Assembly (NCBI GenBank): GCA_047616585.1
Contig: JBLHGD010000001.1
Span: 1-51,128 of the forward strand
DNA length: 51,128 nucleotides
Direction of reading: 5' to 3'
DNA from: Candidatus Azotimanducaceae bacterium
Lineage (GTDB): Bacteria > Patescibacteriota > Minisyncoccia > Phycocordibacterales > UBA918
Position numbers and translations under genes: made by a program. The notes beneath the pieces are model-generated. The model did no database searches. It was not told the DNA's origin and saw only the letters and a list, made by a program, of their open reading frames with translations. This document shows, one piece after another, positions 4,332 through 46,722 of this stretch; position 1 is the stretch's first letter, and each line of letters begins with the position of its first letter.

Positions 4332-4340
4332 AACAAAACA

Positions 4341-6142: not shown

Positions 6143-7114
6143 TTATGTATCGTTCCTGAGTTTTTCTACAAGAGAATCTTGTAGTATTTTGATGCTTTCA
6201 GGGTCATTTTGTGACACTACAAACACACGCTTCTCATTGATGTCAATGTCATTGAGAAATGGTTGGATTACTGCAATATCTACAAGGTCTTTTTTAGTGA
6301 AAATGATCCATTCTTCCTTATCAGAAAGTGACTTGTCGTACTTTGATAGCTCATCTCGAATTGTATAATATGTCTTTTTTGGGTCCTCATGCTCTAGAGA
6401 AACAAGGTGCAGAAGCATTTTTGTGCGTGTGACGTGTCGAAGGAATTTGTGCCCCAGCCCCTTTCCTTCTGCTGCACCTTCAATAAGGCCTGGAATGTCT
6501 GCCAGCGTGTACCCAAACAGGTCCCCTAAGTGTGGCTGCAGCGTCGTGAACTGATATGATCCAACCTGTGAGGTTGCGTTTGTAAATAGGTTAAGGAGTG
6601 TTGATTTTCCAGCATTAGGCATGCCAATTAATCCAACATCCACCACAAGTGACAGTTCAATGTGGAAGTCCCCATCTTCACCAGCTTTCCCCTCAGTAGA
6701 TTGTAGTGGCGTGCGATTTGTTGAAGATTTAAAATACTCATTGCCAAGACCCCCACCACCTCCATGTAAAATCTTTTCAGTAGTATGTTCTTCAAAGAGC
6801 TCATACGTCCGATCCCGATTTTTATCATGCACGATGGATCCTATGGGTACGTCAATATACAGATCGTTACTTCCCTTACCATACTGGCTTTGCCCTCCTC
6901 CATCCTCACCATTTTTTGCTATGAATTTTTTGGATCCAGTGTACTTTGAAAGCAGACTTAAATTGCGTACAGCACGAACATACACGTCGCCGCCATTGCC
7001 GCCATTGCCTCCCGCAGGTCCTCCATTGGGTCGGAATTTTTCACGATTCCAGCGTACAACACCATTGCCGCCATTGCCCGCTTTCGCGTATATATCTAAT
7101 TCATCTACAAACAT
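6143..7114 (-). CDS. obg: GTPase Obg/CgtA
   Basis: 323 aa. The N-terminal glycine-rich Obg fold is present (MFVDELDIYAKAGNGGNGVVRWNREKF...GGNGGNGGDVY). The G domain has GMPNAGKST, DIPGLIEGA and TKKD motifs. Confidence 0.95.
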   Translation of the reverse strand: MFVDELDIYAKAGNGGNGVVRWNREKFRPNGGPAGGNGGNGGDVYVRAVRNLSLLSKYTGSKKFIAKNGEDGGGQSQYGKGSNDLYIDVPIGSIVHDKNRDRTYELFEEHTTEKILHGGGGGLGNEYFKSSTNRTPLQSTEGKAGEDGDFHIELSLVVDVGLIGMPNAGKSTLLNLFTNATSQVGSYQFTTLQPHLGDLFGYTLADIPGLIEGAAEGKGLGHKFLRHVTRTKMLLHLVSLEHEDPKKTYYTIRDELSKYDKSLSDKEEWIIFTKKDLVDIAVIQPFLNDIDINEKRVFVVSQNDPESIKILQDSLVEKLRNDT

Positions 7115-8305: not shown

Positions 8306-10837
8306 TTACTTCTCGACTATCTTCCATCCATCATTGAGTAGTGACTCCGCTTTCTTATATTTCATCTCTTTTGTATCAGTGCCATTTGTGACGGACACGA
8401 GGTCATTTCTGCCGTGAGCTTGTGTGTTTATGCGTTGTTGTTGCACCTTTGTATTTGCCGTTTCTCCCGCTGCTCTTTGAATGCGAGCTTTTTCTTTTCG
8501 AAGTGCCTCTTCTTCTCTTTGGATTGCTTCCGGTTGCATATTTGGAATAATCTCCCCAATCCTGTGTAATGCACTCTCTTGCATCTCCTTAAAAAGCCGC
8601 GTACCTTCCTTACGATACTCTATAAGTGGGTCTCTCTGCCCGTATGCACGCAAATTCACACTTGAACGGGTATACCCCATCACTTCAAGATGCTCAACCC
8701 AAATCATATCGGTAACTTGTAGGATGAGTTTCTGTGATAGTTCATACCACCTTTCTTCTCCAAACTCTTGTTTTTTAGCTTCAATTGAAGCTTCTGTCTC
8801 AGGAATCGCAGCGGTAAGCTCATCAAGGACCGCATTGATTTCTTTGTGAGATCCCGTCAGTAGCTCACGCCTTCGTGCATATATAGTTTGTCGTTGTTTA
8901 TTCAAGACATCATCGTATGCCAACACTTGTTTTCTTGAATCAAAATGAAATCCTTCAATTCTAGTCTGGGCAGATTCGAGCTGTTTTGAAATCATTCGTG
9001 TTTCAATTGGCTGATCTTCTGGAATGCCAAATGTCCCCATCAACTTTTTAACTCTCTCACCTCCAAATACACGCATAAGTGAATCTTCCATAGACACATA
9101 GAACTGTGTCTCTCCAGGATCGCCCTGACGTCCAGCTCGTCCTCGTAGCTGATTATCGATACGCCGCGCTTCGTGGCGTTCAGTACCCAACACAAATAAA
9201 CCACCGAGTTCTTTAACTGCTTCTTGTTCCGCATCTGTTGCTGTTGGTCCGCCCAGTTTAATATCTACCCCTCGTCCTGCGACGTTTGTTGCAAGCGTAA
9301 CCGCTCCCTTCCTTCCTGCTGCAGCAATAATCTCACCCTCCTGCTCATGATTTTTAGCATTAAGCATTTTATGTGTAATGCCAGACTTTGTAAGCACTAC
9401 AGACAGGAGTTCGTTCTTATCGATTGACGCAGTACCAATCAAGATTGGTTGTCCTTTTTCATTCACTTCTTTTACTTTTCGTATGACCGCGTCAAATTTA
9501 CCTTTCTCAGTCTGAAAAATTAGATCATTCTGATCAAGACGCTGCACTTCCTTATGTGTCGGTACTGGCACGACGTCCAAACCATACACTGTAAAAAACT
9601 CCTCTTGTGAGGTGAGCGCGGTACCTGTCATACCTGCGATTTTCTTATACATGCGGAAATAATTCTGATACGTCACTGACGCATATGTCCGAGACTCTTG
9701 CTGGATTTTTACACCTTCCTTAGCTTCAACTGCTTGATGCAGCCCATCAGACCAACGACGTCCAGGCTGTAAACGTCCTGTAAATTCATCGACAATAACT
9801 ACCTCTCCATCGCGTACAACATACTCTTTATTGCTCGTATACAACGCCTTCGCGCGCACAGCAGTCTCAAGGTGATGGACATACTTGATACCACGGTCGG
9901 TATATATATTTTCTATTCCAAGTGCCTTTTCCGCTTCTTCGATTCCAGCGTCCGTAAGAGAGACGCTTTTTAACTTTTCATCAACTGCATAATGCTCATC
10001 AACTTTCAATTTGCCCGCAACGCCCACAAATACATCGTATAAGTTTTCGGAATCAGCGGCAGGCGCAGAGATAATAAGAGGTGTTCGCGCCTCATCGATA
10101 AGAATGGAATCGATCTCATCGACGATTGTATATGTGTGGTTATGTTGACGAACTTTCTCCTGATCAAACTCGATATTGTCTCTTAAATAATCAAACCCAA
10201 ATTCGCTGTTTGTTCCATATGTAATATCAGCCTGATACGACTCCTGTCGAGTGCACGGGCGCAGAAACTCATAGTGCACCTTGTACGCACCTTCGCTATC
10301 GCGGGCGGCATCATCTGCTTCCTCCGTATGGGCACCATCGTACAAATAAGACTCACCATGATTGATGACACCCACAGATAAACCGAGTGCAGCGTAAATT
10401 TGACCCATCCACACGGCGTCACGTCTCGAGAGATAATCATTCACTGTCACTACATGTACACACTCACCTAAAAGCGCGTTAAGGGCCCCTGGGAGAGTCC
10501 CAACAAGTGTCTTACCTTCACCAGTGCGCATTTCAGTAATTTTTCCGCGATGCAGCAATACGCCGCCAATTAACTGCTCGTCGTAATGACGCAAACCAAG
10601 TGTCCGCTTAGACGCTTCCCGTGTAAGGGCGAACATATCTTCCAACACACCATCCAATGATGCACTATCAGATACTTGTTCACGTAATTGGGTTACCTTA
10701 CTCTTAATTTCATCGTCAGATAACTCTACATACACGGACTCTAAAGCATTGATCGTATCCACAATCGGCTGTACCTCTTTAAGCTCTTTTTCGTATGTGG
10801 GGCCAAAAAATCTATCCAGAAAAGACATAATAGGCAC
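8306..10837 (-). CDS. secA: Preprotein translocase ATPase SecA
   Basis: 843 aa with canonical SecA motifs (MRTGEGKTL, IVDEIDSILIDEARTPLIIS, TNVAGRGVDIKLGG, GRAGRQGDPGETQFYVS). Confidence 0.97.
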   Translation of the reverse strand: MPIMSFLDRFFGPTYEKELKEVQPIVDTINALESVYVELSDDEIKSKVTQLREQVSDSASLDGVLEDMFALTREASKRTLGLRHYDEQLIGGVLLHRGKITEMRTGEGKTLVGTLPGALNALLGECVHVVTVNDYLSRRDAVWMGQIYAALGLSVGVINHGESYLYDGAHTEEADDAARDSEGAYKVHYEFLRPCTRQESYQADITYGTNSEFGFDYLRDNIEFDQEKVRQHNHTYTIVDEIDSILIDEARTPLIISAPAADSENLYDVFVGVAGKLKVDEHYAVDEKLKSVSLTDAGIEEAEKALGIENIYTDRGIKYVHHLETAVRAKALYTSNKEYVVRDGEVVIVDEFTGRLQPGRRWSDGLHQAVEAKEGVKIQQESRTYASVTYQNYFRMYKKIAGMTGTALTSQEEFFTVYGLDVVPVPTHKEVQRLDQNDLIFQTEKGKFDAVIRKVKEVNEKGQPILIGTASIDKNELLSVVLTKSGITHKMLNAKNHEQEGEIIAAAGRKGAVTLATNVAGRGVDIKLGGPTATDAEQEAVKELGGLFVLGTERHEARRIDNQLRGRAGRQGDPGETQFYVSMEDSLMRVFGGERVKKLMGTFGIPEDQPIETRMISKQLESAQTRIEGFHFDSRKQVLAYDDVLNKQRQTIYARRRELLTGSHKEINAVLDELTAAIPETEASIEAKKQEFGEERWYELSQKLILQVTDMIWVEHLEVMGYTRSSVNLRAYGQRDPLIEYRKEGTRLFKEMQESALHRIGEIIPNMQPEAIQREEEALRKEKARIQRAAGETANTKVQQQRINTQAHGRNDLVSVTNGTDTKEMKYKKAESLLNDGWKIVEK

Positions 10838-11057
10838 TAGTGTACCCCATCACTAACTTTTTGTCAGTTTTACGATACGACAAGAGAATCGCTACATATA
10901 ACAATATTTCAACACTTATTCAACTTAACATTCAACGCTGTACTAGTCAGCAGACACAAAGTTAGTGTGGGGTGTCCCCCGGAGCTATCATTACGTCTAC
11001 CACAAACACTTTGCCGCGTTTTAGAGAATATATCAGCACTACAACGGTATGATCACA

Positions 11058-11086
11058 TCAAAAATACCGCCAATGGAGGGCGGTAT
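11058..11086 (-). terminator. Rho-independent terminator downstream of the histone-like gene
   Basis: Minus strand reads ATACCGCC-CTCCATT-GGCGGTAT followed by TTTTGATG, about 29 nt after the stop at 11115. Confidence 0.55.
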
Positions 11087-11114
11087 CATTTGAGCAACCA
11101 GACGTGCAAATATA

Positions 11115-11405
11115 TTATTTACGACGTCGAACTGTCTTTTTTACTGTCTTCTTCTTAGCTGCTGGCTTTCGCTTTGCGGCTACTTTTTTCTTCGGTGCAG
11201 CTTTCTTTTTCTTAGCTGGTACTTTTTTCTTTGGTGCGGCCTTTCGCTTTGGCGCAGCTTTCTTTTTCTTAGCTGCTGGCTTTCGCTTTGCTACTACTTT
11301 CTTCTTAGCTGCTGGCTTTCGCTTTGCTACTACTTTCTTCTTAGCTGCTGGCTTTCGCTTTACAACTGTTTTTCTTTTTGTAGCAGCTTTCTTTTTTGCT
11401 GGCAT
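11115..11405 (-). CDS. Lys/Ala-rich histone H1-like basic DNA-binding protein
   Basis: 96 aa, consisting of MPAKKKAATKRKTVVKRKPAAKKKVVAKRKPAAKKK... with AKRKPAAKKKVV repeats. It has its own promoter-like and terminator-like signals. The antisense Phe/Ala-rich ORF is a mirror artefact. Confidence 0.8.
   Translation of the reverse strand: MPAKKKAATKRKTVVKRKPAAKKKVVAKRKPAAKKKVVAKRKPAAKKKKAAPKRKAAPKKKVPAKKKKAAPKKKVAAKRKPAAKKKTVKKTVRRRK
11155..11375 (-). repeat. In-frame 36-nt tandem repeats inside the histone-like CDS
   Basis: Identical units cttagctgctggctttcgctttgctactactttctt occur at 11268-11303 and 11304-11339. A third copy starts at 11340 and degenerate copies lie upstream. Confidence 0.85.
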
Positions 11406-11462
11406 AACGTTGAAAGATTAGAATGGTTAATCAATTCGACCGCTGACTTCTCGAAGGAAAGA

Positions 11463-11491
11463 ACTATACTGAAGAGAATGTCTGCTTACAA
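11463..11491 (-). promoter_or_regulatory. Candidate sigma70-like promoter of the histone-like gene
   Basis: Minus strand reads TTGTAA (11491-11486), a 17-nt spacer, then TATAGT (11468-11463), about 57 nt upstream of ATG 11405. Confidence 0.4.
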
Positions 11492-11551
11492 CTATTATCC
11501 CCCATACAAAAATTACTGCAATCGATTTTGTAAAAAAAAAATGTGGATAAG

Positions 11552-11583
11552 AAAAATATTTTTTGTGCACAAAAAATATTTTT
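11552..11583. repeat. Perfect 32-nt AT-rich palindrome (16+16, no spacer)
   Basis: aaaaatattttttgtgcacaaaaaatattttt equals its own reverse complement and is centred on GTGCAC. It directly abuts the murB terminator. Confidence 0.95.
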
Positions 11584-11623
11584 AAAAAAAACGCGCAAAG
11601 TTTTGAGAACTTCGCGCGTTTTT
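11584..11623 (-). terminator. Rho-independent terminator downstream of murB
   Basis: Minus strand reads AACGCGCGAAG-loop-CTTTGCGCGTT followed by a T8 run. It starts about 14 nt after the murB stop (11637). Confidence 0.7.
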
Positions 11624-11636
11624 ACTTAAATTTTTG

Positions 11637-15209: not shown

Positions 15210-15920
15210 TTACTTATTAAGTTTTACTCTATTCTCAACCTGGTTCGTAAATTCCTCCTCGGTTTCTAGTATTCGCTCTTCATCAGTTTCTTCTGATATA
15301 CCTACCTGCACTTCCAAAACATCTAAATCCTGATCAGTCGGGGCTTCAAGCACGTGCCACACTCCGGGCAAATTCACTCGCACTTCACCAGTTGGCATAA
15401 AAAAGAATTCACTCCTCATCTGATGTTTTTGGAGTGACAATGTTTGTCCCGCGTGCACATGCAACATTTTCACCTTTAGCTGTGGCATATCAATAATCAC
15501 GTCGTACCACCCCCAGCGAGTTATCACACGCTGCTTTGCATTCAGTGCCGAGCTTGAAGAATACTTTCCTCCACCAACTTCAAAAACTGGCTCAATACCA
15601 AGTTCTTCACACACATCTAATTCTGGAGTATTTTTGGCACCGCGATCTCCCCCATTTCCAAAATAATCAGGCTTAATCCTTCGAAGTGCTTCACAGACAG
15701 TCCCGTCACTATCGTCGACCACATGTACATGTGGCGTATATGCCTCTAAAATTTTCTTGCGATCATTCCAAGGCTGAAAAAAGAATCCCTTCTTACGTAC
15801 AAGCCAGTCATCGCTATTTGCAACAATATGCACCTCTCCGTATTTAGCAGCATCTTCAATCATGGCAATATGTCCTGGATGTATTGGATCAAAACCTCCT
15901 GATATAACAATTTTTTTCAT
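15210..15920 (-). CDS. Fusion protein with a cytidylyltransferase-like nucleotidyltransferase (RfaE domain II / TagD-like) at the N-terminus and a type II mannose-6-phosphate-isomerase-like cupin at the C-terminus
   Basis: MKKIVISGGFDPIHPGHIAMIEDA carries the HxGH motif. The C-terminal WGWYDVIIDMPQLKVKMLHVHAGQTLSLQKHQMRSEFFFMPTGEVRV is a ManC-type cupin signature. Confidence 0.75.
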   Translation of the reverse strand: MKKIVISGGFDPIHPGHIAMIEDAAKYGEVHIVANSDDWLVRKKGFFFQPWNDRKKILEAYTPHVHVVDDSDGTVCEALRRIKPDYFGNGGDRGAKNTPELDVCEELGIEPVFEVGGGKYSSSSALNAKQRVITRWGWYDVIIDMPQLKVKMLHVHAGQTLSLQKHQMRSEFFFMPTGEVRVNLPGVWHVLEAPTDQDLDVLEVQVGISEETDEERILETEEEFTNQVENRVKLNK

Positions 15921-16212
15921 AATAACTTTTATTTTATTTATAGCACTTCCTCAGATGTAATATGCTCAGTATAACAAAGCAACTAAAAATAAGTTACCTG
16001 TTCATTTCTCTGACTCTCTGTGGCAAATTGGAGTAAGAAGAAAGCGTATCTATCAGACCCCCAGATTTTCTGACCAAAATCCCTACTATGGTTGTTGTTT
16101 GAATATTTGATATACTACCGTTCGTACAGCCCTCTCTCAAAGAAAGACGCTGCCCACTAACCTCTTACTAAGACAACGCAGCAATGAAATTGCTGTAAAG
16201 AATCTACAAGGT

Positions 16213-18435
16213 ATGAAAATTTCAAAAAAATACATCATCTTGGCCTCTGTATTTATCATAATGGTTCTTCCCATTGTATCTATATTGCAGCTCAAGAATT
16301 CTAGTTTAAGGAATGAGATTCTCCAAAACCCGATACTACAACATTTCGTACATACTTATTATTCCCTTAGAAAAATTCCTGACATATTATTTATTCCGTA
16401 CATGGTCACTGACAGCAAGCTGCCAACATATACTTTAGAGATTCCTCACGATAACATTGCCCGCATGAATGCCAAACTTCCTGATGATCCGATGTTTGGG
16501 ACATTGGAAGAAGAAAATAAGCTGTATGTGAACGCAAACTTTTCTTATGATCAATATGCAGACAGAGTAAAAGTGCGATACCGAGGACTAAACGCCAACC
16601 ATTGGAATAAACAGAAGAAGTCCCTGCGCGTTCAATTTCCAAGCAGTAATTATTTTAATGGAGCGAGACTTTTGAATTTTATTATGCCCTTTGATCGAAA
16701 GTACTTTATTGAGCCCCTAAATATGCACCGAACCAAAAAATTTGGGCTTATCGATGTGGATATGTATTTTTCCAGACTTAATATTAATGGCGTGGATACA
16801 GGCGTCTATCTCACATTTGAACACTTCTCGCCCGAGTGGCTTGCTAAAAAAGCACTGCCAGAGGAGAAACTATTTGGTCTACGCGATGGGACTCTTGATG
16901 GTGCCGCAAGCACTCCGGATGACTTTGTGAATATGCTCGCTAAAGAAACTGACGTGGAGAAAGAGGAGCTTGTGACACTTCTCACACTCATACAGCATGC
17001 GGATGACGCCACATTTGAAAATGTAATGCCATATCTTGTTGATTTAGAAAAGCTATATAAATGGAACATAATAAATATTCTCGCTGGAATCAGCCATCAA
17101 ACTGAGTCAGAAAATGCAGTACTTTACTTTAACTCAGTGACAGGGAAATTTGAGATTATTCCATGGGACACCAGTCTTGGAGACCGAGCAATTGGCACAT
17201 ACGACGTCAGTAAATCACCGCTCATGAGTCGCCTCCTCTCTGTTCCCGATTTCAGGGCAAGACATGATGCACTGTTGCGGACATACATAGAAAATGAAGA
17301 GAACTTACGTGAAGATTTGGCGTTTTATGACCAACTATATGAGCAGACCAAAGTAGATTTTTTTAAAGATCACTATAAACACTTCAATAACTTTAATTTC
17401 TTAGCGACGGTACGCGAACAGCGTCAACGGATAGAGGACCATTGGTACAGCGCGGTTGATGTACTCGATCCTGAATATGACTACGCATATCAGGTAGATG
17501 TTACAGATATAGAACTTCCTGGTAGCTTCGCTCACTTCCAGGACGTGCATGAAACCCTCGATACCTTCCTTGCAAAAAACAGGCAATTTTACAAAATCAA
17601 TGGTACTGAAGTCGGGTTAATTGGCACACACAACTTCACCGATGACGTGATCATTCCTAGTGGAATCACCTTACGAATAATGGCTGGTACAAATTTGTAC
17701 ATGGAAGACGAGGTTTCCATTGTCTCCTATGGCGCAGTACATATTTTCGGTACTGACAGCAAACCTGTGAGCATTTCCCCATCGAGCACAAATAAAAAAT
17801 CTTGGGGCACATTTGCTGTTGTGAATGCACCAACAAGTACCGTACAACACCTCATTGCCAGTGGTGGATCTGGAGATAGAATACACGGCATAGCCTTTAG
17901 CGGCATGGTGGCTTTCCACAATACAGATGTGCAGTTAACAGACAGCGTGTTCGAATCTGCCATGAACGACGACGCGCTCAATGTAAAAATGAGTGCTGGA
18001 TGGATCAATAACTCAATTTTTAAAAATAATTCTTCAGACGGCATTGACCTAGATTATGCTAAGGGAGAGTTTACAATACTCACTAACACGTTTACGAAAA
18101 ACGGAGGTGACGCTATCGATTTATCTCACAGTAACGTACTCATTTCGGAGAACACCATACGAGAATGCGCCGACAAAGGCATAAGCGTTGGAGAAGTTTC
18201 CACTACGCGCATCACAAAAAATACTATCAGTGAATGTCGTATTGGGATTGCGGTCAAAGATTTATCTCAAGCCGAGATATCTGAAAATAGTATTACTGAT
18301 ACGGAAACAGCAATTTCTTTATATCTCAAAAAACATGAATTCGGAGGAGGTTCTGCGCTGCTAAAAAGCAACGAGATCGAAGATAATGAGAATGACGTGT
18401 CACTTGATGAGTATTCAGATATACGTTATGAGTAA
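16213..18435 (+). CDS. Exported or membrane-anchored CotH kinase-family protein with a C-terminal right-handed beta-helix repeat domain
   Basis: 740 aa. The N-terminal signal anchor is KKYIILASVFIIMVLPIVSILQL. The CotH-like core is VNANFSYDQYADRVKVRYRGLNANHWNKQKKSLRVQFP...LINVDMYFSRLNINGVDTGVYLTFEH. The C-terminal repeats are INNSIFKNNSSDGIDLDY...TNTFTKNGGDAIDLSHSNVLISENTIRECADKGISVGE... Confidence 0.8.
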   Translation: MKISKKYIILASVFIIMVLPIVSILQLKNSSLRNEILQNPILQHFVHTYYSLRKIPDILFIPYMVTDSKLPTYTLEIPHDNIARMNAKLPDDPMFGTLEEENKLYVNANFSYDQYADRVKVRYRGLNANHWNKQKKSLRVQFPSSNYFNGARLLNFIMPFDRKYFIEPLNMHRTKKFGLIDVDMYFSRLNINGVDTGVYLTFEHFSPEWLAKKALPEEKLFGLRDGTLDGAASTPDDFVNMLAKETDVEKEELVTLLTLIQHADDATFENVMPYLVDLEKLYKWNIINILAGISHQTESENAVLYFNSVTGKFEIIPWDTSLGDRAIGTYDVSKSPLMSRLLSVPDFRARHDALLRTYIENEENLREDLAFYDQLYEQTKVDFFKDHYKHFNNFNFLATVREQRQRIEDHWYSAVDVLDPEYDYAYQVDVTDIELPGSFAHFQDVHETLDTFLAKNRQFYKINGTEVGLIGTHNFTDDVIIPSGITLRIMAGTNLYMEDEVSIVSYGAVHIFGTDSKPVSISPSSTNKKSWGTFAVVNAPTSTVQHLIASGGSGDRIHGIAFSGMVAFHNTDVQLTDSVFESAMNDDALNVKMSAGWINNSIFKNNSSDGIDLDYAKGEFTILTNTFTKNGGDAIDLSHSNVLISENTIRECADKGISVGEVSTTRITKNTISECRIGIAVKDLSQAEISENSITDTETAISLYLKKHEFGGGSALLKSNEIEDNENDVSLDEYSDIRYE

Positions 18436-19144
18436 GAAAGATAAAATATTTGAAAGATACGAGTTCAAGTACATTCTTGACCCAGTCACGTATATGAAAG
18501 TGCGTGACTTTATAGATGCTATTGAACTATCCAGAGATCCAAATGCATTATCGGATGTATATACAGTTACGAGTCTCTATTTTGATACACACGGTCTTGA
18601 TGACTATTACGATAAAGCGGGCGGGTTTTTGTCACGTAAAAAAACAAGAGTGCGTATTTACGGCAGTGGCGTAGACGACAGCACCACTGAAGTTCATTTG
18701 GAACTCAAGAATAAACACGATATGTTCATCTCGAAAGACAAAATACACATACCGATTGCCCAATGGCAGGCATTTCTAGACGGCGATAATGATATATTAC
18801 TTAATAAATTCAAAGTGCACTTGCTAGACGAAGGTCGAGTTCCGACAGTGATGGTACGGTACGACAGAGAAGCGTTTGAGGAGACTTTTTTTGATAGAGT
18901 TCGTGTCACATTCGACAGAAATATTGAATTGATATGTGGCGAAAATCTAGATTCGACCATGCATGATTGGCATGATATAGTTCCTGTTTCAGGAATGTCC
19001 ACCATTATGGAATTGAAATTCTCTGGAAGATTGCCATGGTGGTTTGGCTTCATGTTACGCAAATTCGATTTACGACGATCTCCATACTCAAAATACGCAG
19101 AGGCTGTTGACGTCGCTTATAAGTACAATCCCCTACCTAGATAA
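18428..19144 (+). CDS. VTC-domain (polyphosphate polymerase / CYTH-like tunnel) protein
   Basis: The start is set at ATG 18428 (MSKKDKIFERYEFKYILDP...), overlapping the CotH stop by 8 nt. The length and the RYEFKYIL N-terminus resemble bacterial VTC-domain proteins. Confidence 0.75.
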   Translation: MSKKDKIFERYEFKYILDPVTYMKVRDFIDAIELSRDPNALSDVYTVTSLYFDTHGLDDYYDKAGGFLSRKKTRVRIYGSGVDDSTTEVHLELKNKHDMFISKDKIHIPIAQWQAFLDGDNDILLNKFKVHLLDEGRVPTVMVRYDREAFEETFFDRVRVTFDRNIELICGENLDSTMHDWHDIVPVSGMSTIMELKFSGRLPWWFGFMLRKFDLRRSPYSKYAEAVDVAYKYNPLPR

Positions 19145-19146
19145 TT

Positions 19147-19839
19147 ATGGAAACACAGCTATTTGATTTTTTTAATCTCACAAGAACCGAATCTAGCGCA
19201 GCTATAATAATTTTTAATATATTGCTTTCTTTTGCATTGCAGTTAGTTATTCTGTGGGTGTATAAGAAGACACACAAGGGGCTCTCATACTCTCAGTCGT
19301 TTCTGTTTACACTTGTAATCATTGGAGTTCTTGGATCTGTGATTATGATGGTGGTACAAAATAACCTCATTGGAGCATTCGCCTTACTTGGAGCATTTTC
19401 ACTTATACGATTTAGAACAATTGTAAAAGAGACGCGGGACGTCGCGTTTGTTTTTTTTGCACTTGCCATTGGCGTTGCGGTTGGCACAAGTAATTATTCG
19501 ATTGCGCTAATTGCAACGATAATGCTTTCTGGAATCATTCTCGTTATGTCAAAGTATAGTCTTGGGATAACAAACGGGTCAAACACTATAGGATACGTAC
19601 TGACACTTTCAACCTCGGGCGAGTTAGACATGGAAAAACTTAAAAAGTTGCTATCTCTACATTCTCAAAAACCTGATTTACTACACGCGAAATACCGAGA
19701 AGGCAGAGGTGGGCATTATGCATTCTCAATTAATGTGGAGGACGAAAAGGACTTGCACACACTAGAGTCCGAACTAAAAGGAATGAATAAAATTGATAGA
19801 TTTGAATTTATCACCTCTAAGCACAGTGTGGAATATTAG
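19147..19839 (+). CDS. DUF4956-family integral membrane protein
   Basis: 230 aa with four hydrophobic helices. The segment GAFSLIRFRTIVKETRDVAFVFFALAIGVAVG matches the DUF4956 core as I recall it. It starts 2 nt after the VTC gene stop. Confidence 0.75.
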   Translation: METQLFDFFNLTRTESSAAIIIFNILLSFALQLVILWVYKKTHKGLSYSQSFLFTLVIIGVLGSVIMMVVQNNLIGAFALLGAFSLIRFRTIVKETRDVAFVFFALAIGVAVGTSNYSIALIATIMLSGIILVMSKYSLGITNGSNTIGYVLTLSTSGELDMEKLKKLLSLHSQKPDLLHAKYREGRGGHYAFSINVEDEKDLHTLESELKGMNKIDRFEFITSKHSVEY

Positions 19840-20032: not shown

Positions 20033-21286
20033 ATGATTAAAGCTGCCTACCATTCACTGAAGCAGACCGCGCTGCGTATAGACCTGCCATACTTGATGGA
20101 CGGAGGTTTCTGGCTCACTGCAAGTCAGGTGGTTTCGATGATCTCGTTACTCATACTCTCGTATATTTTTGCAAATTATGTTGACCCTACTGACTACGGA
20201 TTTTACAAATACATTCTGTCACTTGCAATTTTATTTGGGACTTTTTCACTAACCGGGGCGACACAAAGCATAATGCAAGCTGCGTCCAGAAACTATGCCG
20301 CATTTACACGCATCTGTTTTAAAAAATCACTTCAGTATGGATTGATCGTTTCGGGTATCGCCACCATTGCCTCTCTCTATTATTTCATAAATCAAAACAT
20401 ACCCATTGCCATAGGATGTCTTCTGGTTGCCCTATGTAAGCCTCTCATCAATTCTGGACAACTTGTGTTCTCACACCTCATAGGGCTCAAACAATTTAAA
20501 ACTTTAGCAAAATTGCAAGCACTGCGAGTCACAATAACATCGGCCGTACTCATCGGAACAATCTTCTACACTCAAGATATTCTTTTTGTTGTCGCAGCAT
20601 ACTTCATTTCTGAAGCAGTTGTTTCCATGTTGTTGTATTTCTATGCAACACAAAAAATACCCCACACTACGGACACCCACGAGTCCGACCAGCACAAATT
20701 TCTATCATACGCAAAACACACAAGCGTCAGAAATATCTTGACTGGTCTGGCACATGAACTAGATAAAATTCTAGTCTTCCAAAAATTTGGTGCTGTAGAA
20801 CTTGCTGTGTATGCTTTTGCGATTGCAATACCTGAACAACTAAAAGGCTTTATAAAAAACGTTGCGATACTTGTTTTAGTAAAATTTACTGGCTACAACA
20901 TGGACAGTATAAAAAAAGATTTCTTTAAAAAAGTGATCTTACTTGGACTACTACTAATACTGGCTACATTTGTATATATATTTTCCGTACCATATGTGTA
21001 CACGGCTCTCTTCCCAAGTTACTTCGATTCAATTTTCCTATCACAGCTATTTGCCCTTTCCTTTCCTGCAATGATCGCCGTGCTTCCAGTCAGTGCGCTG
21101 CACTCACAGATGCGAGAACGCGATCTTCATAGCCTCAGTATCGTCAATGCAGTACTACTAGTACTTAGTGTATATATCGGAGCAACATACTATGGACTTA
21201 TCGGACTGGTTATAGGTAGAGTACTAGTAAGGTATATACACTGTATTATGGCCTTTATGCTTATGTATTCTCGTCAAACTAAATAG
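20033..21286 (+). CDS. Oligosaccharide/polysaccharide flippase (Wzx-like, MOP superfamily)
   Basis: 417 aa with about 12 TM helices and an N-terminal region typical of polysaccharide biosynthesis (Polysacc_synt) exporters. It sits within a glycan locus. Confidence 0.78.
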   Translation: MIKAAYHSLKQTALRIDLPYLMDGGFWLTASQVVSMISLLILSYIFANYVDPTDYGFYKYILSLAILFGTFSLTGATQSIMQAASRNYAAFTRICFKKSLQYGLIVSGIATIASLYYFINQNIPIAIGCLLVALCKPLINSGQLVFSHLIGLKQFKTLAKLQALRVTITSAVLIGTIFYTQDILFVVAAYFISEAVVSMLLYFYATQKIPHTTDTHESDQHKFLSYAKHTSVRNILTGLAHELDKILVFQKFGAVELAVYAFAIAIPEQLKGFIKNVAILVLVKFTGYNMDSIKKDFFKKVILLGLLLILATFVYIFSVPYVYTALFPSYFDSIFLSQLFALSFPAMIAVLPVSALHSQMRERDLHSLSIVNAVLLVLSVYIGATYYGLIGLVIGRVLVRYIHCIMAFMLMYSRQTK

Positions 21287-22515: not shown

Positions 22516-23064
22516 CTACGCAGCAATCTCCGAATGATGCATCAACAACGTCAAAAGATGCGCTGCGGAAAAATCATCAAAAAACGGACTGTCGCGGGAA
22601 GTTGCCAATTTACACGCTTCTTGTAATGGCATGCAGCGAGCGCTGCAGTCTTTTGTTGTTGGCTCGCCAATTGACTTCGGGTTTTGTAAAAATCCGTACA
22701 CAATTGGAAATTTGTATTGTGGACCACAACCCAAGCACATGCGCCACCACAGCATTTCATGTTCATCGGATGCAAGCCCGAGCTTTGCTTTGGTGTGTGC
22801 AAGCGCCGCTACGTCTCTGGTACGATCACCATCGTAACCGCCGGAGACTTTGACGATTTCACTCCCACCGGTACCCGCTCGAATCTGCACCAAAAGACAA
22901 ACTTCAATGGGTCCCGCAACGGTATACCGCCAAGGCAATGTCATGGTAGCCGGTCCCGTTCGCACATACGGATACATTCCATCGGACAATTGTTTTACGT
23001 CGAGCTCGAAGAACTTCCCATGCCCAAAACTCTGACCGACCCTAAGTTTTTCTCTGTCGCTCAT
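22516..23064 (-). CDS. Orphan hypothetical protein (182 aa, Cys-containing C-terminal half), compositionally atypical
   Basis: The start is ATG 23064, preceded by GGAGG at a 5-nt spacing (the track start 23067 is a GTG). I recognise no family (MSDREKLRVGQSFGHGKFFELDVKQLSDGMYPYVRTGPATMTLPWRYTVAGP...WWRMCLGCGPQYKFP...CSARCMPLQEAC). Its own stem-loop lies downstream. Confidence 0.6.
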   Translation of the reverse strand: MSDREKLRVGQSFGHGKFFELDVKQLSDGMYPYVRTGPATMTLPWRYTVAGPIEVCLLVQIRAGTGGSEIVKVSGGYDGDRTRDVAALAHTKAKLGLASDEHEMLWWRMCLGCGPQYKFPIVYGFLQNPKSIGEPTTKDCSARCMPLQEACKLATSRDSPFFDDFSAAHLLTLLMHHSEIAA

Positions 23065-23180
23065 CACGACCTCCTACCGTCTGATTACACCTACACAATT
23101 GAGGGTGTTTCAATCTGTAGGAATCATACCACAAAATCTCAAAACATCAACTTGGAGACGAAACTCGATATTAGACCTTT

Positions 23181-26931: not shown

Positions 26932-28581
26932 CTATATAGCAGATTTGCTTGAAGACGGACAGGTCGACACATCATATACGTACATATTCTTACCAAGCTG
27001 GCGAAGTGTGTAAAAAGACGGCATAAGCATGCGACCAAGATTGATATCAAAATCAAACACCTCAGTGTCTGGTACGCTATTACCAAAACGGGCAATTGGC
27101 GTGCAACCCGGGATACTCAGTTCGAGCACAACGATATCCACTGGCGCAAGCATCTCGAGTACTGCTTGGTCAGTATAATTGGTAACAACCAGTGGATTAA
27201 ATTCGATGTCAGCGTCAAGCGTTCGTCGATGCTTGCACGTTGAACCGCAGTTTTCTTCTGCAAAAATCTCATACGAAGCCCTGTTCATTGGTAGCGTGAG
27301 CTCAAAAATATCCTCCTTAATAAGAACCTCTTCAGTGCCGTACCGTGCTGTGAGAAAATCAGAAACGTCATTGTATGTGGTAGGAACTGAAAATAGCGCC
27401 ATTGTATGCATATAAATGAGCAGTCCGATAGAAATAAACCCGACAGCCACAGAACGTGCCGGCGCACGATACGCAACAATACAAAATAATAAAAAAAAGG
27501 CCAACGGGAAAATATGTCTGACATTTAATGAAAGACCGTGATCCGATCTAAAAAGCACCGACGCCATTAGGATGTAGATCACTCCATACGTGAGCGCGAG
27601 GTACGCAAGTGTTTTATCGCGCACACGCCATCCAGCAGCAGGAATCACAACGAATAGTAGTGCGAGAAATAGTAATGGGAACGCCTCAACTGCATGTCGG
27701 GCGTTCACAAGAAAAGCTTCAAAAAACGACAGTGCGGGCAAGTCGTCAATGATTATTTCAGCAGATGGCTGGAGCAGTGGCGTAATGAAGGACGACACCA
27801 ACTGAAATGTATTTTGGAAATTAAGTGCAACTACAGAAAGAAAAACAGCTCCTCCGCTAAGCACTATCAGAAAAAGACGCCGCAGTGACTTTGCGGTTTT
27901 GGGAAAGAAAAGAAAAAGTATCGGAATATTTATCAAAAAAACAGCCGCAAACGGAAAGTTGGCAGTTGCAAGAAATGCGGTAACGACCGAGATTACAGAT
28001 GAACGTCCGGAGATGCCGGACGTACGCTCTTCTGTAAGCGCACGATACAAGTATATAAACGAAATAACTCCAAGCGCCGTGGAGAGCATCCACATTTTCC
28101 CTGAACGCACTAGTAAGGATGCGAGCACATTGCCAAATACGAGCACGATAAGAGCAAAGCGCCACCATGAAGAAGTAACATGGGCTTTTAAAAAGCGATA
28201 CACCACAGCGAGCAAAACGATCGATGTAAGAACAGAAACAATGCGTGATGGGATCAGCGTGTACGAAGGATTGAGGATGAGCAACGTTTTAAGCGCCTCG
28301 AGATCAAATCCAGTAAATACAAAGCCAGCAGCAAGCGCGAACGCCATAGCTATATAATTCTGAAAGAATGAGATTGTTCCATACGGGACATCCCCTCCAG
28401 GAAAGAGAGTATGCGCCTCCATAGCACGCAACACGCCACCACCAAAAGACCATACATCAGTAATAGTATTGACCATGGGAATCGCATACCACACACCGAC
28501 AAAAAAACTGACGCCAAATACAATCACCATCAGGTCTTCTTTCGTTAAGGAGTACAGTTTTTTCAGGATACGCGTCTTCAT
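26932..28581 (-). CDS. Polytopic membrane protein with a C-terminal soluble domain. It may be a GT-C-type glycosyltransferase or polymerase.
   Basis: 549 aa with at least 10 hydrophobic helices over the first roughly 400 aa, then a soluble tail of about 140 aa. No confident family motif was seen. It sits within the glycan locus. Confidence 0.65.
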   Translation of the reverse strand: MKTRILKKLYSLTKEDLMVIVFGVSFFVGVWYAIPMVNTITDVWSFGGGVLRAMEAHTLFPGGDVPYGTISFFQNYIAMAFALAAGFVFTGFDLEALKTLLILNPSYTLIPSRIVSVLTSIVLLAVVYRFLKAHVTSSWWRFALIVLVFGNVLASLLVRSGKMWMLSTALGVISFIYLYRALTEERTSGISGRSSVISVVTAFLATANFPFAAVFLINIPILFLFFPKTAKSLRRLFLIVLSGGAVFLSVVALNFQNTFQLVSSFITPLLQPSAEIIIDDLPALSFFEAFLVNARHAVEAFPLLFLALLFVVIPAAGWRVRDKTLAYLALTYGVIYILMASVLFRSDHGLSLNVRHIFPLAFFLLFCIVAYRAPARSVAVGFISIGLLIYMHTMALFSVPTTYNDVSDFLTARYGTEEVLIKEDIFELTLPMNRASYEIFAEENCGSTCKHRRTLDADIEFNPLVVTNYTDQAVLEMLAPVDIVVLELSIPGCTPIARFGNSVPDTEVFDFDINLGRMLMPSFYTLRQLGKNMYVYDVSTCPSSSKSAI

Positions 28582-30873: not shown

Positions 30874-31869
30874 TTAGAGCAATACACGCTTCCCTTCTTT
30901 CGCTGAAGTACGCATTGCTTCAAGCACGGTTGCTTGGGCAAGTATGCGCTCATACATATCTTCAAATTGCACACTATCATTTTTTGCAATAGCTTTGAAG
31001 AAGAAATCAAAGCTCAGTTCAAATTGGTTAGCTGCTGGAACAACAAGGTTCTCAGTTTTGTCTTCCTTGCCATTATTTGTGATATGAACTACGGGTGGTT
31101 CTAAAGTCGGTGGTATAGCAAACGCTCTTTTTGTTTGCAACATACCCTTCGACCCCAGTACCGAATATGTATTTTGGTATAAATGATCAAAACCAAAGGA
31201 CATCAGTGCTTCCCCATGCGCAAACTCAAAGAGTGCTGATCCAGCAATGTCTACATCTTTTGACTCAGAGGATATTCTGCACGTCACCGCAATTGGTTCT
31301 GCCTGCATAATCTTACGTGCCATAAACGCAGTGTAACAACCACAGTCGTTTATCGCTCCTCCTCGTAACTCAGGATTATTTCGAATATTACCCACTTCAA
31401 ACGGCGGAAAAGCGAAAGCTCCATTCCATACGCGAGGTGTCCCGATGTGACCTTCTTCTATAAGCGAAAGTATCTTTGCATGTTGTGGGTGAAATTCTAG
31501 TGCGAAATTCTCATAGAGTGCTACATTGGCTTCTTTACAAGCCTGTACCATTTTTTTTGCTGACTCAAGACTGTACGTGATAGATTTCTCGCACATGACA
31601 TGCTTCCCTGCCGCTGCAGATTTCAGCGTCCACTCTTCTTGCAAGCCTACAGGGAGTGGGCTGTATATGACATCAATATCTGGGCGAGCAATGAGGGATT
31701 CATATCCTTCCGCCTCAAGACCGTGCTCAGAAGCGCACGCATCTGCTTTTTCTTTAGAGCGGCTGGCGATGGCCACCAGCTCAACATCAGGGAGCGCTTT
31801 AAAAGCTGGAATTGCATACCGCCTCGCAATTTCCGCACACCCTAATATTCCAACACGAACTTTTTTCAT
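30874..31869 (-). CDS. Gfo/Idh/MocA-family NAD(P)-dependent oxidoreductase (candidate sugar 3-ketoreductase, KijD10/TylC1-like)
   Basis: The start is set at ATG 31869 (MKKVRVGILGCAEIARRYAIPAF), which forms an ATGA overlap with the upstream stop. The track start is a GTG. Confidence 0.88.
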   Translation of the reverse strand: MKKVRVGILGCAEIARRYAIPAFKALPDVELVAIASRSKEKADACASEHGLEAEGYESLIARPDIDVIYSPLPVGLQEEWTLKSAAAGKHVMCEKSITYSLESAKKMVQACKEANVALYENFALEFHPQHAKILSLIEEGHIGTPRVWNGAFAFPPFEVGNIRNNPELRGGAINDCGCYTAFMARKIMQAEPIAVTCRISSESKDVDIAGSALFEFAHGEALMSFGFDHLYQNTYSVLGSKGMLQTKRAFAIPPTLEPPVVHITNNGKEDKTENLVVPAANQFELSFDFFFKAIAKNDSVQFEDMYERILAQATVLEAMRTSAKEGKRVLL

Positions 31870-40540: not shown

Positions 40541-40550
40541 AGCAGTGTAA

Positions 40551-46097: not shown

Positions 46098-46099
46098 TG

Positions 46100-46717: not shown

Positions 46718-46722
46718 AATTA

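What the first reader, a model, noticed from the sequence alone, without database searches (positions are those of the whole stretch)
16213..19839. Coupled triad of an exported CotH kinase-like/beta-helix protein, a VTC polyphosphate-polymerase domain protein and a DUF4956 membrane protein
Seen in sequence: three plus-strand genes form an island among minus-strand genes. They are joined by an 8-nt overlap (18428-18435) and a 2-nt gap (19145-19146), so they are almost certainly co-translated. Protein 1 has an N-terminal signal anchor, a CotH-like core and C-terminal carbohydrate-binding-type beta-helix repeats. Protein 2 looks like a VTC/CYTH tunnel domain. Protein 3 is a 4-TM DUF4956 protein.

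Established knowledge: CotH proteins are atypical protein kinases. In yeast, the Vtc4 tunnel domain synthesises polyphosphate and threads it through an associated membrane channel.

Inference: VTC plus DUF4956 could be a bacterial analogue that makes and exports polyP. The extracytoplasmic CotH/beta-helix protein could then phosphorylate or polyphosphorylate a surface protein or glycan, perhaps using polyP where ATP is unavailable. As far as I know, no function has been established for this triad. Its position at the head of a 36-kb surface-glycan locus in a reduced genome is suggestive.
Basis: partly seen in the sequence, partly recalled or inferred. Interest (0 to 1): 0.7.

Follow-up and report, generated by a model that had tools for sequence, protein, structure and literature searches.

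The report
CotH–VTC–DUF4956 surface phosphate module
Three tightly coupled genes pair a yeast-type polyphosphate-making enzyme and a membrane protein inside the cell with a kinase-like, sugar-binding enzyme outside it; this gene set is widespread and already noted in the literature but biochemically uncharacterised, and it may show how bacteria phosphorylate surface polymers where there is no ATP.

Summary
Three coupled plus-strand genes encode a membrane-anchored CotH-fold protein with a beta-helix (16213-18435), a stand-alone VTC domain (18428-19144) and a DUF4956 membrane protein (19147-19839).

- **VTC protein:** it keeps every Vtc4 triphosphate-tunnel residue, including the Lys that separates active Vtc4 from inactive Vtc2/3.
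- **DUF4956 protein:** it is MgtC-like, with five membrane helices and a cytosolic ACT-like domain, not four TM helices.
- **CotH domain:** it has the CotH kinase fold but lacks the canonical catalytic Asp. An invariant His sits there instead, and the metal-binding Asn and Asp are kept.
- **Co-occurrence:** of 68 loci found through VTC alone, 57 have DUF4956 directly downstream and 32 have a CotH gene within 10 kb.
- **Partners in double-membrane lineages:** the pair sits next to a HlyD-like adaptor, a porin-like gene or a signal-peptide pyrophosphatase. This supports export.

The triad is not new. It was described beside Gram-positive Pel operons, where deletions lower Pel output. This copy lies in a non-Pel, Wzx/Wzy-type glycan locus of a probable CPR bacterium. 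The "make, export and use polyphosphate" model fits the data but is untested. Verdict: a new variant of a known, uncharacterised module, of moderate-to-good interest.

The parts
16213..18435 (+). P1, 740 aa. It has an N-terminal signal-anchor helix (residues 6-27), a CotH kinase-fold domain (about 60-430) and a right-handed beta-helix (about 460-740). H295 replaces the canonical catalytic Asp. N301, D319 and the K136-S137 motif are conserved.
   Evidence: Pfam CotH and Beta_helix/NosD. AlphaFold2 model with pLDDT 89.7 and pTM 0.86. Foldseek match to B. cereus CotH 5jda (E 1e-14, TM 0.78); the beta-helix resembles AlgE4/AlgG epimerases, PL6 lyases and RbmB. Motif alignments. Hydropathy.
18428..19144 (+). 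P2, 238 aa. A soluble stand-alone VTC (Vtc4-type triphosphate tunnel) domain and the predicted polyphosphate polymerase. Its start overlaps the end of P1 by 8 nt.
   Evidence: Pfam VTC 1-234/235, E 2e-29. The profile matches the yeast Vtc4 catalytic domain 3g3q at E 1.6e-16. Vtc4 K200/R264/R266/K281/K294/Y359/R361/R373/E426/S457/K458 map to invariant K14/R74/R76/K94/K103/Y145/R147/R159/E195/S221/K222. No hydrophobic segment.
19147..19839 (+). P3, 230 aa. A DUF4956 / MgtC-like membrane protein with five membrane helices (11-42, 50-70, 74-94 broken, 96-113, 117-136), an invariant basic loop R88-x-R90-T-x-x-K94-E-T-x-D98 predicted to face the cytoplasm, and a C-terminal ferredoxin/ACT-like domain (148-223). 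It starts 2 nt after the P2 stop.
   Evidence: Pfam DUF4956. All 31 homologues also weakly match Pfam MgtC. AlphaFold2 model with pLDDT 78. Foldseek finds ACT, NikR and S6 folds and the MgtC C-terminal domain 7qa5. Conservation.
20033..21286 (+). Wzx-type flippase (Polysacc_synt), the fourth plus-strand gene, 193 nt downstream. It is a probable functional neighbour rather than a core part.
   Evidence: Pfam. A Wzx gene on the same strand directly flanks the triad in L008, L012, L017, L019, L020, L022, L074/75 and L078.
15921..16212 (.). 292-nt divergent intergenic region between the cytidylyltransferase-cupin gene (minus strand) and P1. It presumably holds the promoter of the plus-strand block.
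   Evidence: Sequence. The consensus promoter and terminator scans were no better than shuffled sequence, so this assignment is positional only.

Best explanation
The three genes form one module that makes a phosphoanhydride polymer inside the cell and uses it outside.

1. P2 is a cytoplasmic Vtc4-type tunnel enzyme. It polymerises the gamma-phosphate of ATP into polyphosphate.
2. P3 is a MgtC-like membrane protein with five helices and a cytosolic ACT-like domain. It docks P2 at the membrane and passes the nascent chain, or short polyphosphate or pyrophosphate, to the outer face, probably as an oligomer.
3. P1 is anchored by one N-terminal helix with its CotH-fold and beta-helix domains outside. 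It holds a surface polysaccharide on the beta-helix and transfers phosphate, or a polyphosphate chain, onto the Wzx/Wzy-made glycan or an associated protein. Exported polyphosphate is the donor because ATP is absent outside the cell. The invariant His295 acts as catalytic base or as a phospho-His intermediate.

Shown here: the gene coupling, domain identities, intact Vtc4 tunnel, predicted topology, conserved synteny and the extracytoplasmic nature of the partner genes. Inferred: polyphosphate synthesis, export through P3, the donor and the acceptor.
For: - **Coupling:** 8-nt overlap and 2-nt gap.
- **Polymerase:** every Vtc4 triphosphate and Mn ligand is invariant in P2. This includes K222, the equivalent of Vtc4 K458, which the inactive Vtc2/3 lack.
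- **Topology:** P2 is soluble. P1 and nearly all full-length triad-linked CotH homologues carry an N-terminal anchor, signal peptide or lipobox.
- **Synteny from the VTC side:** DUF4956 is directly downstream in 57 of 68 independently retrieved loci, or 57 of 65 where sequence continues. CotH is within 10 kb in 32 of 68, across Patescibacteria, Myxococcota, Planctomycetota, Campylobacterota, Latescibacterota and Clostridia.
- **Synteny from the CotH side:** three of three CotH-beta-helix homologues that were looked up are followed by VTC-DUF4956.
- **Signs of export in double-membrane lineages:** a HlyD-like periplasmic adaptor is adjacent in about 23 loci. A beta-barrel porin-like gene lies upstream in L043. 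A signal-peptide-bearing inorganic pyrophosphatase lies directly after DUF4956 in L047 and L049.
- **Link to a glycan:** the beta-helix resembles polysaccharide epimerases and lyases. The triad sits in glycan loci and next to Wzx in many CPR genomes. In Streptococcus intermedius, deleting the CotH-like or the DUF4956-like gene lowers Pel and aggregation (PMC12345266).
- **Precedent:** yeast VTC couples polyphosphate synthesis to membrane transit (bioRxiv 10.1101/2023.01.27.525886).
Against: - No biochemical data exist for any bacterial member.
- P3 is unrelated to the yeast VTC transmembrane domain.
- As far as I know, MgtC-family proteins are known as regulators (of F1Fo ATPase and PhoR) and not as channels. 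This rests on my own knowledge and on the summary.
- No VTC-DUF4956 fusion appears among the best 150 family representatives.
- The canonical catalytic Asp of CotH is missing in P1, so phosphotransfer itself is uncertain.
- Some triads lie among housekeeping genes with no glycan genes nearby.
- No kinase-fold enzyme is known to use polyphosphate as donor (my knowledge).
Confidence: 0.4

Rival explanations
1. Polyphosphate is itself the exported product, as a surface or matrix polyanion. P1 is not a phosphotransferase that uses it as donor. Instead P1 is a tether, remodelling enzyme or polysaccharide lyase/epimerase whose degenerate kinase fold binds phosphate chains.
For: The catalytic Asp is absent from P1. 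The beta-helix resembles lyases and epimerases. VTC-DUF4956 occurs without CotH but with export-type partners in about 23 loci, so the pair has a role of its own.
Against: H295, N301, D319, the K136-S137 motif and R124-G125 are invariant or nearly so across 22 homologues that share 24-65% identity with P1. This points to a working active site rather than a relic. Firmicute and Sorangium triads keep the canonical Asp.
Confidence: 0.2
2. P1 is an extracytoplasmic protein kinase that regulates or modifies secretion-machinery or surface proteins, as CotH does in the spore coat. It uses ATP or another nucleotide that leaks or is exported. VTC and DUF4956 only buffer phosphate or energy.
For: The CotH fold. 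Proven Ser/Thr kinase activity of Bacillus CotH (PMC7821199). The hypothesis of the Pel authors that CotH regulates Pel synthesis by protein phosphorylation.
Against: There is no ATP source outside the membrane. A D228Q change inactivates B. subtilis CotH, and P1 lacks that Asp. The fused polysaccharide-type beta-helix and the strict linkage to VTC-DUF4956 are left unexplained.
Confidence: 0.12
3. VTC and DUF4956 act inside the cell as a MgtC-like phosphate/ATP homeostasis or signalling unit that tunes glycan production. Nothing is exported, and CotH is linked only through co-regulation.
For: DUF4956 resembles MgtC, with an ACT-like domain. MgtC is known as a regulator of ATP and phosphate physiology (summarised).
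Against: The partner genes are consistently extracytoplasmic: anchored CotH, HlyD-like adaptors, a secreted pyrophosphatase and a porin-like gene. The translational coupling to an exported enzyme is tight.
Confidence: 0.15
4. P2 is not a polymerase. It is another tunnel-metalloenzyme activity, such as a triphosphatase, polyphosphatase or cyclase, as in bacterial CYTH proteins.
For: The triphosphate-tunnel superfamily is functionally diverse (my knowledge of the CYTH/TTM families). No bacterial VTC protein has been assayed.
Against: P2 matches Pfam VTC and not CYTH. It keeps the full Vtc4 residue set, including the Lys equivalent to Vtc4 K458.
Confidence: 0.08

Closest known systems
cotH / 'polyphosphate polymerase' / DUF4956 accessory genes of Gram-positive Pel loci (Whitfield et al. 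2019/2020, bioRxiv 10.1101/768473; S. intermedius SIR_1592-1594, PMC12345266)
   Same: The same three families are contiguous. The CotH protein is secreted. The DUF4956 protein is described as an MgtC-like membrane domain plus an ACT domain. The set is linked to an exopolysaccharide locus. The mechanism is unknown.
   Different: This window has no pel genes and no DUF4832; the locus is Wzx/Wzy-type. CotH is fused to a beta-helix rather than FN3. The catalytic Asp is replaced by His, whereas a Firmicute-like triad (L070) keeps Asp. The host is probably a CPR bacterium. The 2025 paper reports not finding the triad outside Pel loci, and the loci found here contradict that.
Yeast VTC complex (Vtc4 catalytic subunit; PDB 3g3q, 7ytj, 8i6v)
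   Same: Same catalytic tunnel domain with all triphosphate and Mn ligands. The enzyme is paired with a membrane protein, and the partner genes suggest the product crosses a membrane.
   Different: P2 has no SPX domain and no fused transmembrane domain. Its membrane partner is a separate MgtC-like protein unrelated to the VTC/DUF202 helices. Polymerase activity and translocation are untested.
Bacillus CotH spore-coat Ser/Thr kinase (PDB 5jd9/5jda)
   Same: Same fold (Foldseek E 1e-14, TM 0.78; hhalign probability 99%). The metal-binding Asn and Asp are conserved.
   Different: P1 is extracytoplasmic and membrane-anchored, and it is not a spore protein. It lacks the catalytic Asp (B. subtilis D228, whose Gln mutant is inactive). 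It carries a C-terminal polysaccharide-type beta-helix.
MgtC/SapB/YhiD family
   Same: A five-helix membrane domain followed by an ACT-like cytosolic domain. There are weak but consistent Pfam MgtC matches (31 of 31) and a Foldseek hit to the MgtC C-terminal domain 7qa5.
   Different: It belongs to a separate Pfam family (DUF4956) and is always paired with a VTC gene. The MgtC match is below Pfam's gathering score.
Fam20-type secretory-pathway kinases, including the glycan kinase Fam20B (my knowledge; the CotH-Fam20C relationship is stated in PMC7821199)
   Same: A kinase fold that works outside the cytosol. Some members phosphorylate sugars.
   Different: Fam20 enzymes use ATP imported into the Golgi lumen and keep the catalytic Asp. 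No polyphosphate link is known.

Membership tests
VTC / Vtc4-type polyphosphate polymerase domain (PF09359) | Full-length profile match above the curated cut-off | tested here: met
   103.5 bits against a cut-off of 23, covering profile positions 1-234 of 235. The profile matches Vtc4 3g3q at E 1.6e-16.
VTC / Vtc4-type polyphosphate polymerase domain (PF09359) | Triphosphate-coordinating residues K200, R264, R266, K281, R361, K458, S457 and Y359, and the Mn ligand E426 | tested here: met
   All map to residues that are invariant in 18 of 18 homologues: K14, R74, R76, K94, R147, K222, S221, Y145 and E195.
VTC / Vtc4-type polyphosphate polymerase domain (PF09359) | Synthesis of polyphosphate from ATP | not testable with these tools
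   This needs an enzyme assay.
Yeast-type VTC complex | SPX domain and a fused C-terminal three-helix VTC transmembrane domain that forms the channel | tested here: not met
   P2 is 238 aa with only the VTC domain and no hydrophobic segment. Its membrane partner is MgtC-like.
CotH kinase family (PF08757) | Profile match and kinase-like fold | tested here: met
   69.7 bits against a cut-off of 23.8. hhalign probability 99%. Foldseek match to 5jda at E 1e-14 and TM 0.78.
CotH kinase family (PF08757) | Catalytic Asp (B. subtilis D228; 'NFDG' in B. cereus) | tested here: not met
   The position is aligned to H295 by mafft or to T297 by hhalign. No Asp is present, and H295 is invariant in 22 of 22 homologues. 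The assignment of D228 and D251 to the B. cereus motifs rests on their 23-residue spacing and was not read from the original paper.
CotH kinase family (PF08757) | Metal-binding Asn and Asp (B. subtilis D251, 'PWD') | tested here: met
   N301 and D319 are nearly invariant.
CotH kinase family (PF08757) | Ser/Thr protein kinase activity with ATP | not testable with these tools
   This needs an enzyme assay.
DUF4956 (PF16316) / MgtC-like | Profile match, a multi-helix membrane domain and an ACT-like C-terminal domain | tested here: met
   DUF4956 at 55.4 bits against a cut-off of 30.6. The model shows five helices and a beta-alpha-beta-beta-alpha-beta domain. Foldseek finds ACT folds and MgtC C-terminal domain hits. 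The MgtC profile itself scores only 16 bits, below its cut-off.
Pel-associated cotH / polyphosphate polymerase / DUF4956 accessory module | The three genes are contiguous and co-oriented | tested here: met
Pel-associated cotH / polyphosphate polymerase / DUF4956 accessory module | Contiguous with pelDEADAFG, with DUF4832 or a diguanylate cyclase/phosphodiesterase partner | tested here: not met
   Pfam scans of 44 large ORFs across the window found no Pel-specific families, no DUF4832 and no GGDEF/EAL domains. The locus is Wzx/Wzy-type.

The most novel reading that the evidence does not exclude
Bacteria have a VTC-type polyphosphate synthase and exporter, made of a stand-alone Vtc4-like tunnel enzyme and an MgtC-like membrane protein. 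It feeds an ATP-independent extracytoplasmic phosphotransferase, a His-variant CotH fold fused to a glycan-binding beta-helix. This enzyme phosphorylates or polyphosphorylates Wzx/Wzy- or Pel-type surface polymers. It would be the first polyphosphate-driven kinase-fold enzyme and the first assigned molecular role for an MgtC-family membrane domain.
Probability: 0.2. Interest if true: 0.85.

Novelty: new variant of a known kind. Interest (0 to 1): 0.58.

Why it matters
Polyphosphate synthesis in bacteria is usually attributed to PPK1 and PPK2, and VTC is usually treated as a eukaryotic enzyme (my knowledge of the field; a 2023 review of VTC distribution that I checked surveys eukaryotic lineages only). 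The data here point the other way. There are thousands of stand-alone bacterial VTC proteins: 9,134 cluster representatives at E<=1e-10. They carry an intact Vtc4 active site and are almost always paired with one membrane protein and with extracytoplasmic partners.

If the model holds, it would explain three things:
- how exported kinase-fold enzymes obtain a phosphoryl donor where no ATP exists;
- a biochemical role for the MgtC-like fold;
- a route by which surface glycans, including Pel in pathogenic streptococci and the coats of ultra-small CPR bacteria, acquire phosphate.

The module is small (three genes, about 3.6 kb), so it can be tested directly by heterologous expression.

Tried and rejected
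- **Locus search query:** the 18-sequence VTC alignment was too diverse for the locus search (error). A 16-sequence version worked.
- **Contaminated profile:** my iterative 'beta-helix' profile absorbed whole CotH proteins, giving implausible E-values. I ignored those labels and used Pfam and Foldseek for the beta-helix instead.
- **CotH structure paper:** the original paper (Nguyen 2016) is not held. The catalytic residues were taken from PMC7821199 and placed on the B. cereus sequence by their 23-residue spacing.
- **Uninformative scans:** promoter and terminator scans were at chance level. Rfam and tRNA scans of the window were empty.
- **Naming:** NCBIfam has no model that names P2 or P3.
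- **P3 membrane domain:** no solved structure resembles it by sequence or by fold. Only the C-terminal domain matched.
- **Gene fusions:** I looked for VTC-DUF4956 fusions among the best 150 family representatives and found none.
- **Defence system or mobile element:** considered and dropped. There are no such genes nearby, and synteny is conserved in chromosomal glycan loci.
- **Gammaproteobacterial origin (the NCBI label):** rejected. SecA scores lower against E. coli than against Thermotoga and Bacillus.

Full report
**1. The observation**

The ORF list shows three plus-strand genes. P1 is 16213-18435 (740 aa). P2 is listed mechanically from 18386, with an internal ATG at 18428. P3 is 19147-19839 (230 aa).

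The raw sequence confirms the coupling:
- P2's ATG at 18428-18430 lies inside P1's last codons, and P1's TAA is at 18433-18435. This gives an 8-nt overlap.
- P2's TAA at 19142-19144 is followed by TT and then P3's ATG, a 2-nt gap.
- Homologues start at the equivalent of 18428. JGI calls the 238-aa form and NCBI a 252-aa form.

Pfam recovers all three families above their gathering scores: CotH plus Beta_helix/NosD in P1, full-length VTC in P2 and DUF4956 in P3.

There are three corrections. A fourth plus-strand gene, a Wzx-type flippase, follows at 20033-21286. A Wzy_C/TPR gene and a cytidylyltransferase-cupin gene lie upstream, so the triad is inside the glycan locus and not at its head. The rest of the window downstream (to 51128) is a Wzx/Wzy-type glycan locus with many GT4/GT2 genes, dTDP-, GDP- and UDP-sugar enzymes and no Pel genes. 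The genes upstream of the locus are housekeeping genes such as GatB, Obg, SecA and MurB.

**2. Source**

The contig is JGI metagenome 3300053785, Ga0535658_0000607. NCBI labels the MAG 'Candidatus Azotimanducaceae', a family of Gammaproteobacteria.

Two observations argue against that label:
- The nearest homologues of all three proteins come from Patescibacteria/CPR: Azam-, Magasanik-, Ryan- and Sungbacteria and Paceibacterota.
- The window's SecA scores 738 bits against Thermotoga, about 710 against Bacillus and only 665 against E. coli.

The gammaproteobacterial label is therefore doubtful and a CPR origin fits better. Genome reduction cannot be checked from one contig.

**3. P2, the VTC protein**

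A profile of 18 homologues matches the yeast Vtc4 catalytic domain over its whole length (3g3q, E 1.6e-16).

The cryo-EM study of VTC lists the residues that hold the triphosphate (K200, R264, R266, K281, R361, K458, S457, Y359) and the Mn ligand E426. It also notes that K458 is what the inactive Vtc2/3 lack. I anchored the numbering and mapped the residues through the profile. All of them, plus K294, R373 and K428, fall on residues invariant in 18 of 18 homologues: K14, R74, R76, K94, K103, Y145, R147, R159, E195, K197, S221 and K222.

P2 has no hydrophobic segment. An exhaustive profile search finds 15,236 cluster representatives at E<=1e-3 and 9,134 at E<=1e-10. The best 150 are all stand-alone proteins of 211-282 aa. 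P2 therefore passes every sequence test for a Vtc4-type polymerase, but it lacks the SPX and transmembrane domains of the yeast protein.

**4. P3, the DUF4956 protein**

The AlphaFold2 model (pLDDT 78) shows helices at 11-42, 50-70, 74-85/89-94, 96-113 and 117-136, followed by a beta-alpha-beta-beta-alpha-beta domain at 148-223.
- Foldseek matches only the C-terminal domain, to S6, NikR and ACT folds and to the MgtC C-terminal domain 7qa5.
- All 31 homologues also give weak Pfam MgtC matches, the best at E 4.5e-6.
- No solved structure matches the membrane part by sequence.
- The invariant residues cluster in GAFxLLGAFSLIRFRTxxKETRD (residues 76-98) and in a C-terminal Glu-Tyr.

By the positive-inside rule (my inference), the basic loops 39-45 and 88-98 and the ACT-like domain face the cytoplasm. 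That gives an N-out, C-in topology with five helices, not four.

**5. P1, the CotH-fold protein**

The model is confident (pLDDT 89.7, pTM 0.86).
- The N-terminal half matches B. cereus CotH kinase (5jda, E 1e-14, TM 0.78).
- The C-terminal beta-helix resembles mannuronan C5-epimerases (AlgE4, AlgG), PL6 alginate lyases, RbmB, pectate lyases and phage tailspikes. This is the fold of enzymes that bind or act on polysaccharides.

P1 has one N-terminal hydrophobic helix after a Lys-rich start. Nearly all full-length triad-linked homologues have the same feature, and the Sorangium ones carry a lipobox-like sequence.

The catalytic-residue check gives a twist. B. subtilis CotH is inactivated by D228Q and by D251A (PMC7821199). 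In B. cereus CotH the only Asp pair 23 residues apart in this stretch is NFD...PWD, which identifies the two positions.

| Position | State in P1 | Conservation |
|---|---|---|
| PWD Asp (B. subtilis D251) | D319 | nearly invariant |
| Preceding metal-binding Asn | N301 | nearly invariant |
| Catalytic Asp (B. subtilis D228) | absent | H295 is invariant in 22 of 22 |

Mafft aligns NFDGF with NFHQG (L074) and ISHQT (P1), which places His exactly on the Asp. hhalign places the His two residues upstream. The alignment of loci agrees that no Asp is present.

The His variant is found in CPR and in Campylobacterota (L047), Planctomycetota (L064) and other MAGs. Firmicute-like (L070), Eubacteriales (L065) and Sorangium triads keep the canonical Asp. 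P1 therefore has the CotH fold and a conserved pocket, but it fails one defining catalytic feature.

**6. Is the triad real?**

A scan of one genome per GTDB species with the VTC alignment alone returned 68 loci from many phyla. Iterative profiles on their ORFs gave these counts:

| Feature | Loci |
|---|---|
| DUF4956 directly downstream of VTC | 57 of 68 (3 of the 11 exceptions are cut by contig ends) |
| CotH gene within 10 kb | 32 of 68 |

The CotH gene usually lies immediately upstream, as it does here, or immediately downstream (L009, L032, L036). About 20 of the loci are Sorangium species and are not independent.

Starting from CotH-beta-helix homologues gives the same picture. Three of three are followed by VTC-DUF4956. 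A distant Pelagibacter CotH is not.

**7. Context**

- **In CPR,** the triad often sits in glycan loci. At least 17 CPR-type loci have hits to three or more glycan gene families. A Wzx gene on the same strand directly flanks the triad in L008, L012, L017, L019, L020, L022, L074/75 and L078. Other neighbours include phosphonate (PEP mutase) and TagF-like genes, nonulosonic-acid genes and a Bac_transf initiating transferase.
- **In some genomes** it lies among housekeeping genes.
- **In double-membrane lineages,** VTC-DUF4956 is next to a HlyD-like periplasmic adaptor in about 23 loci from Myxococcota, Bacteroidota, Planctomycetota and Latescibacterota. HlyD_3 is above the gathering score in L038, L053 and L058.
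- **In L043,** a beta-barrel porin-like gene with a weak Porin_O_P match precedes VTC.
- **In two Campylobacterota MAGs,** a family I inorganic pyrophosphatase with a signal peptide follows DUF4956.

All of these partners work outside the cytoplasmic membrane. This is what one would expect if the product of the pair leaves the cell.

**8. Literature**

The triad is already described. Whitfield et al. list cotH, a 'polyphosphate polymerase', DUF4956 and DUF4832 as accessory genes contiguous with Gram-positive pel operons. In S. intermedius, deleting the CotH-like (SIR_1594) or the DUF4956-like (SIR_1592) gene lowers Pel and aggregation. Those authors describe SIR_1592 as MgtC plus ACT and state that they did not find the triad outside Pel loci. 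C. perfringens NELoc-2 carries VTC, a membrane 'tubulin-like' gene that is probably DUF4956 (my inference), and CotH next to a chitin-synthase-like transferase.

I found no paper that assays a bacterial VTC protein or discusses the triad in CPR. A 2023 review of VTC distribution that I checked surveys eukaryotic lineages only.

**9. Mechanism**

The best-supported reading is a make, export and use module. P2 synthesises polyphosphate from ATP in the cytoplasm. P3 couples it to the membrane and lets it out. P1, anchored outside, binds a glycan through its beta-helix and transfers phosphate from the exported polymer, with His295 as base or covalent intermediate.
- **Shown:** the coupling, domains, intact tunnel, topology, synteny and extracytoplasmic partners.
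- **Inferred:** every chemical step.

I give this model 0.4. The main rivals are:
- polyphosphate as the exported end product, with P1 as a binder or glycan-modifying enzyme (0.2);
- an intracellular MgtC-like regulatory role without export (0.15);
- a conventional extracellular protein kinase (0.12);
- a non-polymerase tunnel enzyme (0.08).

**10. Verdict**

The module is a new variant of a known but uncharacterised gene set. It differs in its non-Pel Wzx/Wzy context, its probable CPR host, its CotH-beta-helix fusion and its Asp-to-His active site. Interest is moderate to good. The idea is testable with three small genes and touches open questions on bacterial VTC enzymes, the function of the MgtC fold and extracellular phosphorylation. 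No direct functional evidence exists yet.

Noticed in passing
whole window; SecA 8306-10837 (-), Obg 6143-7114 (-): NCBI labels this MAG Candidatus Azotimanducaceae (Gammaproteobacteria). SecA scores higher against Thermotoga and Bacillus than against E. coli, and all close homologues of the triad are from CPR. The taxonomic label or the binning is probably wrong.
   Followed up: partly
L047:11403-12053 (+) and L049:2807-3460 (+): A family I inorganic pyrophosphatase with an N-terminal signal peptide is encoded directly after DUF4956 in two Campylobacterota MAGs. This hints at phosphoanhydride chemistry in the periplasm.
   Followed up: partly
L038:11468-12574, L048:8940-9998, L045:1382-2446, L053:11425-12354, L029:11461-13599 and about 18 more loci: A HlyD-like periplasmic adaptor gene is adjacent to VTC-DUF4956 in Bacteroidota, Myxococcota, Planctomycetota and Latescibacterota. 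In Sorangium it carries an extra C-terminal domain with a weak phytase-like match.
   Followed up: partly
L043:8913-9971 (+): A signal-peptide-bearing beta-barrel porin-like gene lies immediately upstream of VTC in an Aegiribacteria MAG. It matches BBP2 and, weakly, the phosphate-selective porin O/P family.
   Followed up: no
L026:11463-12602 (+) and L034:3029-4168 (+): A 379-aa predicted lipoprotein directly after DUF4956 gives a weak Pfam CYTH match (E 0.007). It may be a second, exported tunnel-fold protein.
   Followed up: no
L074/L075:3710-8215: In Ryanbacteria the triad and Wzx are flanked by a phosphonate pathway (PEP mutase, TPP decarboxylase, Fe-ADH) and a TagF-like glycerophosphotransferase. 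That glycan locus is rich in phosphorus chemistry.
   Followed up: no
window 31866-33733 (-): An NDP-hexose 2,3-dehydratase and a sugar C-methyltransferase lie next to RmlA/B/D-type genes. Enzymes of this kind usually make branched deoxysugars in antibiotic producers (my knowledge), which is unusual for a probable CPR bacterium.
   Followed up: no
window 45384-48778 (-): A tight block of a HAD hydrolase, a PIG-L deacetylase, a Ter-type ATP-grasp enzyme and a GT4 transferase. It suggests an amino-acid-decorated or N-deacetylated sugar.
   Followed up: no
window 26932-28581 (-), 39677-40576 (-), 22516-23067 (-), 2187-4349 (-): Several sizeable ORFs inside or next to the glycan locus have no Pfam match, including one of 549 aa.
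   Followed up: no
window 10838-11636: An 800-nt stretch between SecA and MurB has only a 105-aa hypothetical ORF called by JGI. It has no Rfam or tRNA hit.
   Followed up: no
window 15210-15920 (-): A fusion of a cytidylyltransferase-like domain (HxGH motif) with a mannose-6-phosphate-isomerase-type cupin is transcribed divergently from the triad and shares its 292-nt intergenic region. It may supply an activated phospho-sugar or phospho-alcohol.
   Followed up: no
L070-L072:7421-10050: In a Firmicute-like contig the VTC-DUF4956-CotH block is preceded by a sigma-70 region-2 factor and two paralogous unknown proteins. This recalls the sigma-factor neighbour in C. perfringens NELoc-2.
   Followed up: no
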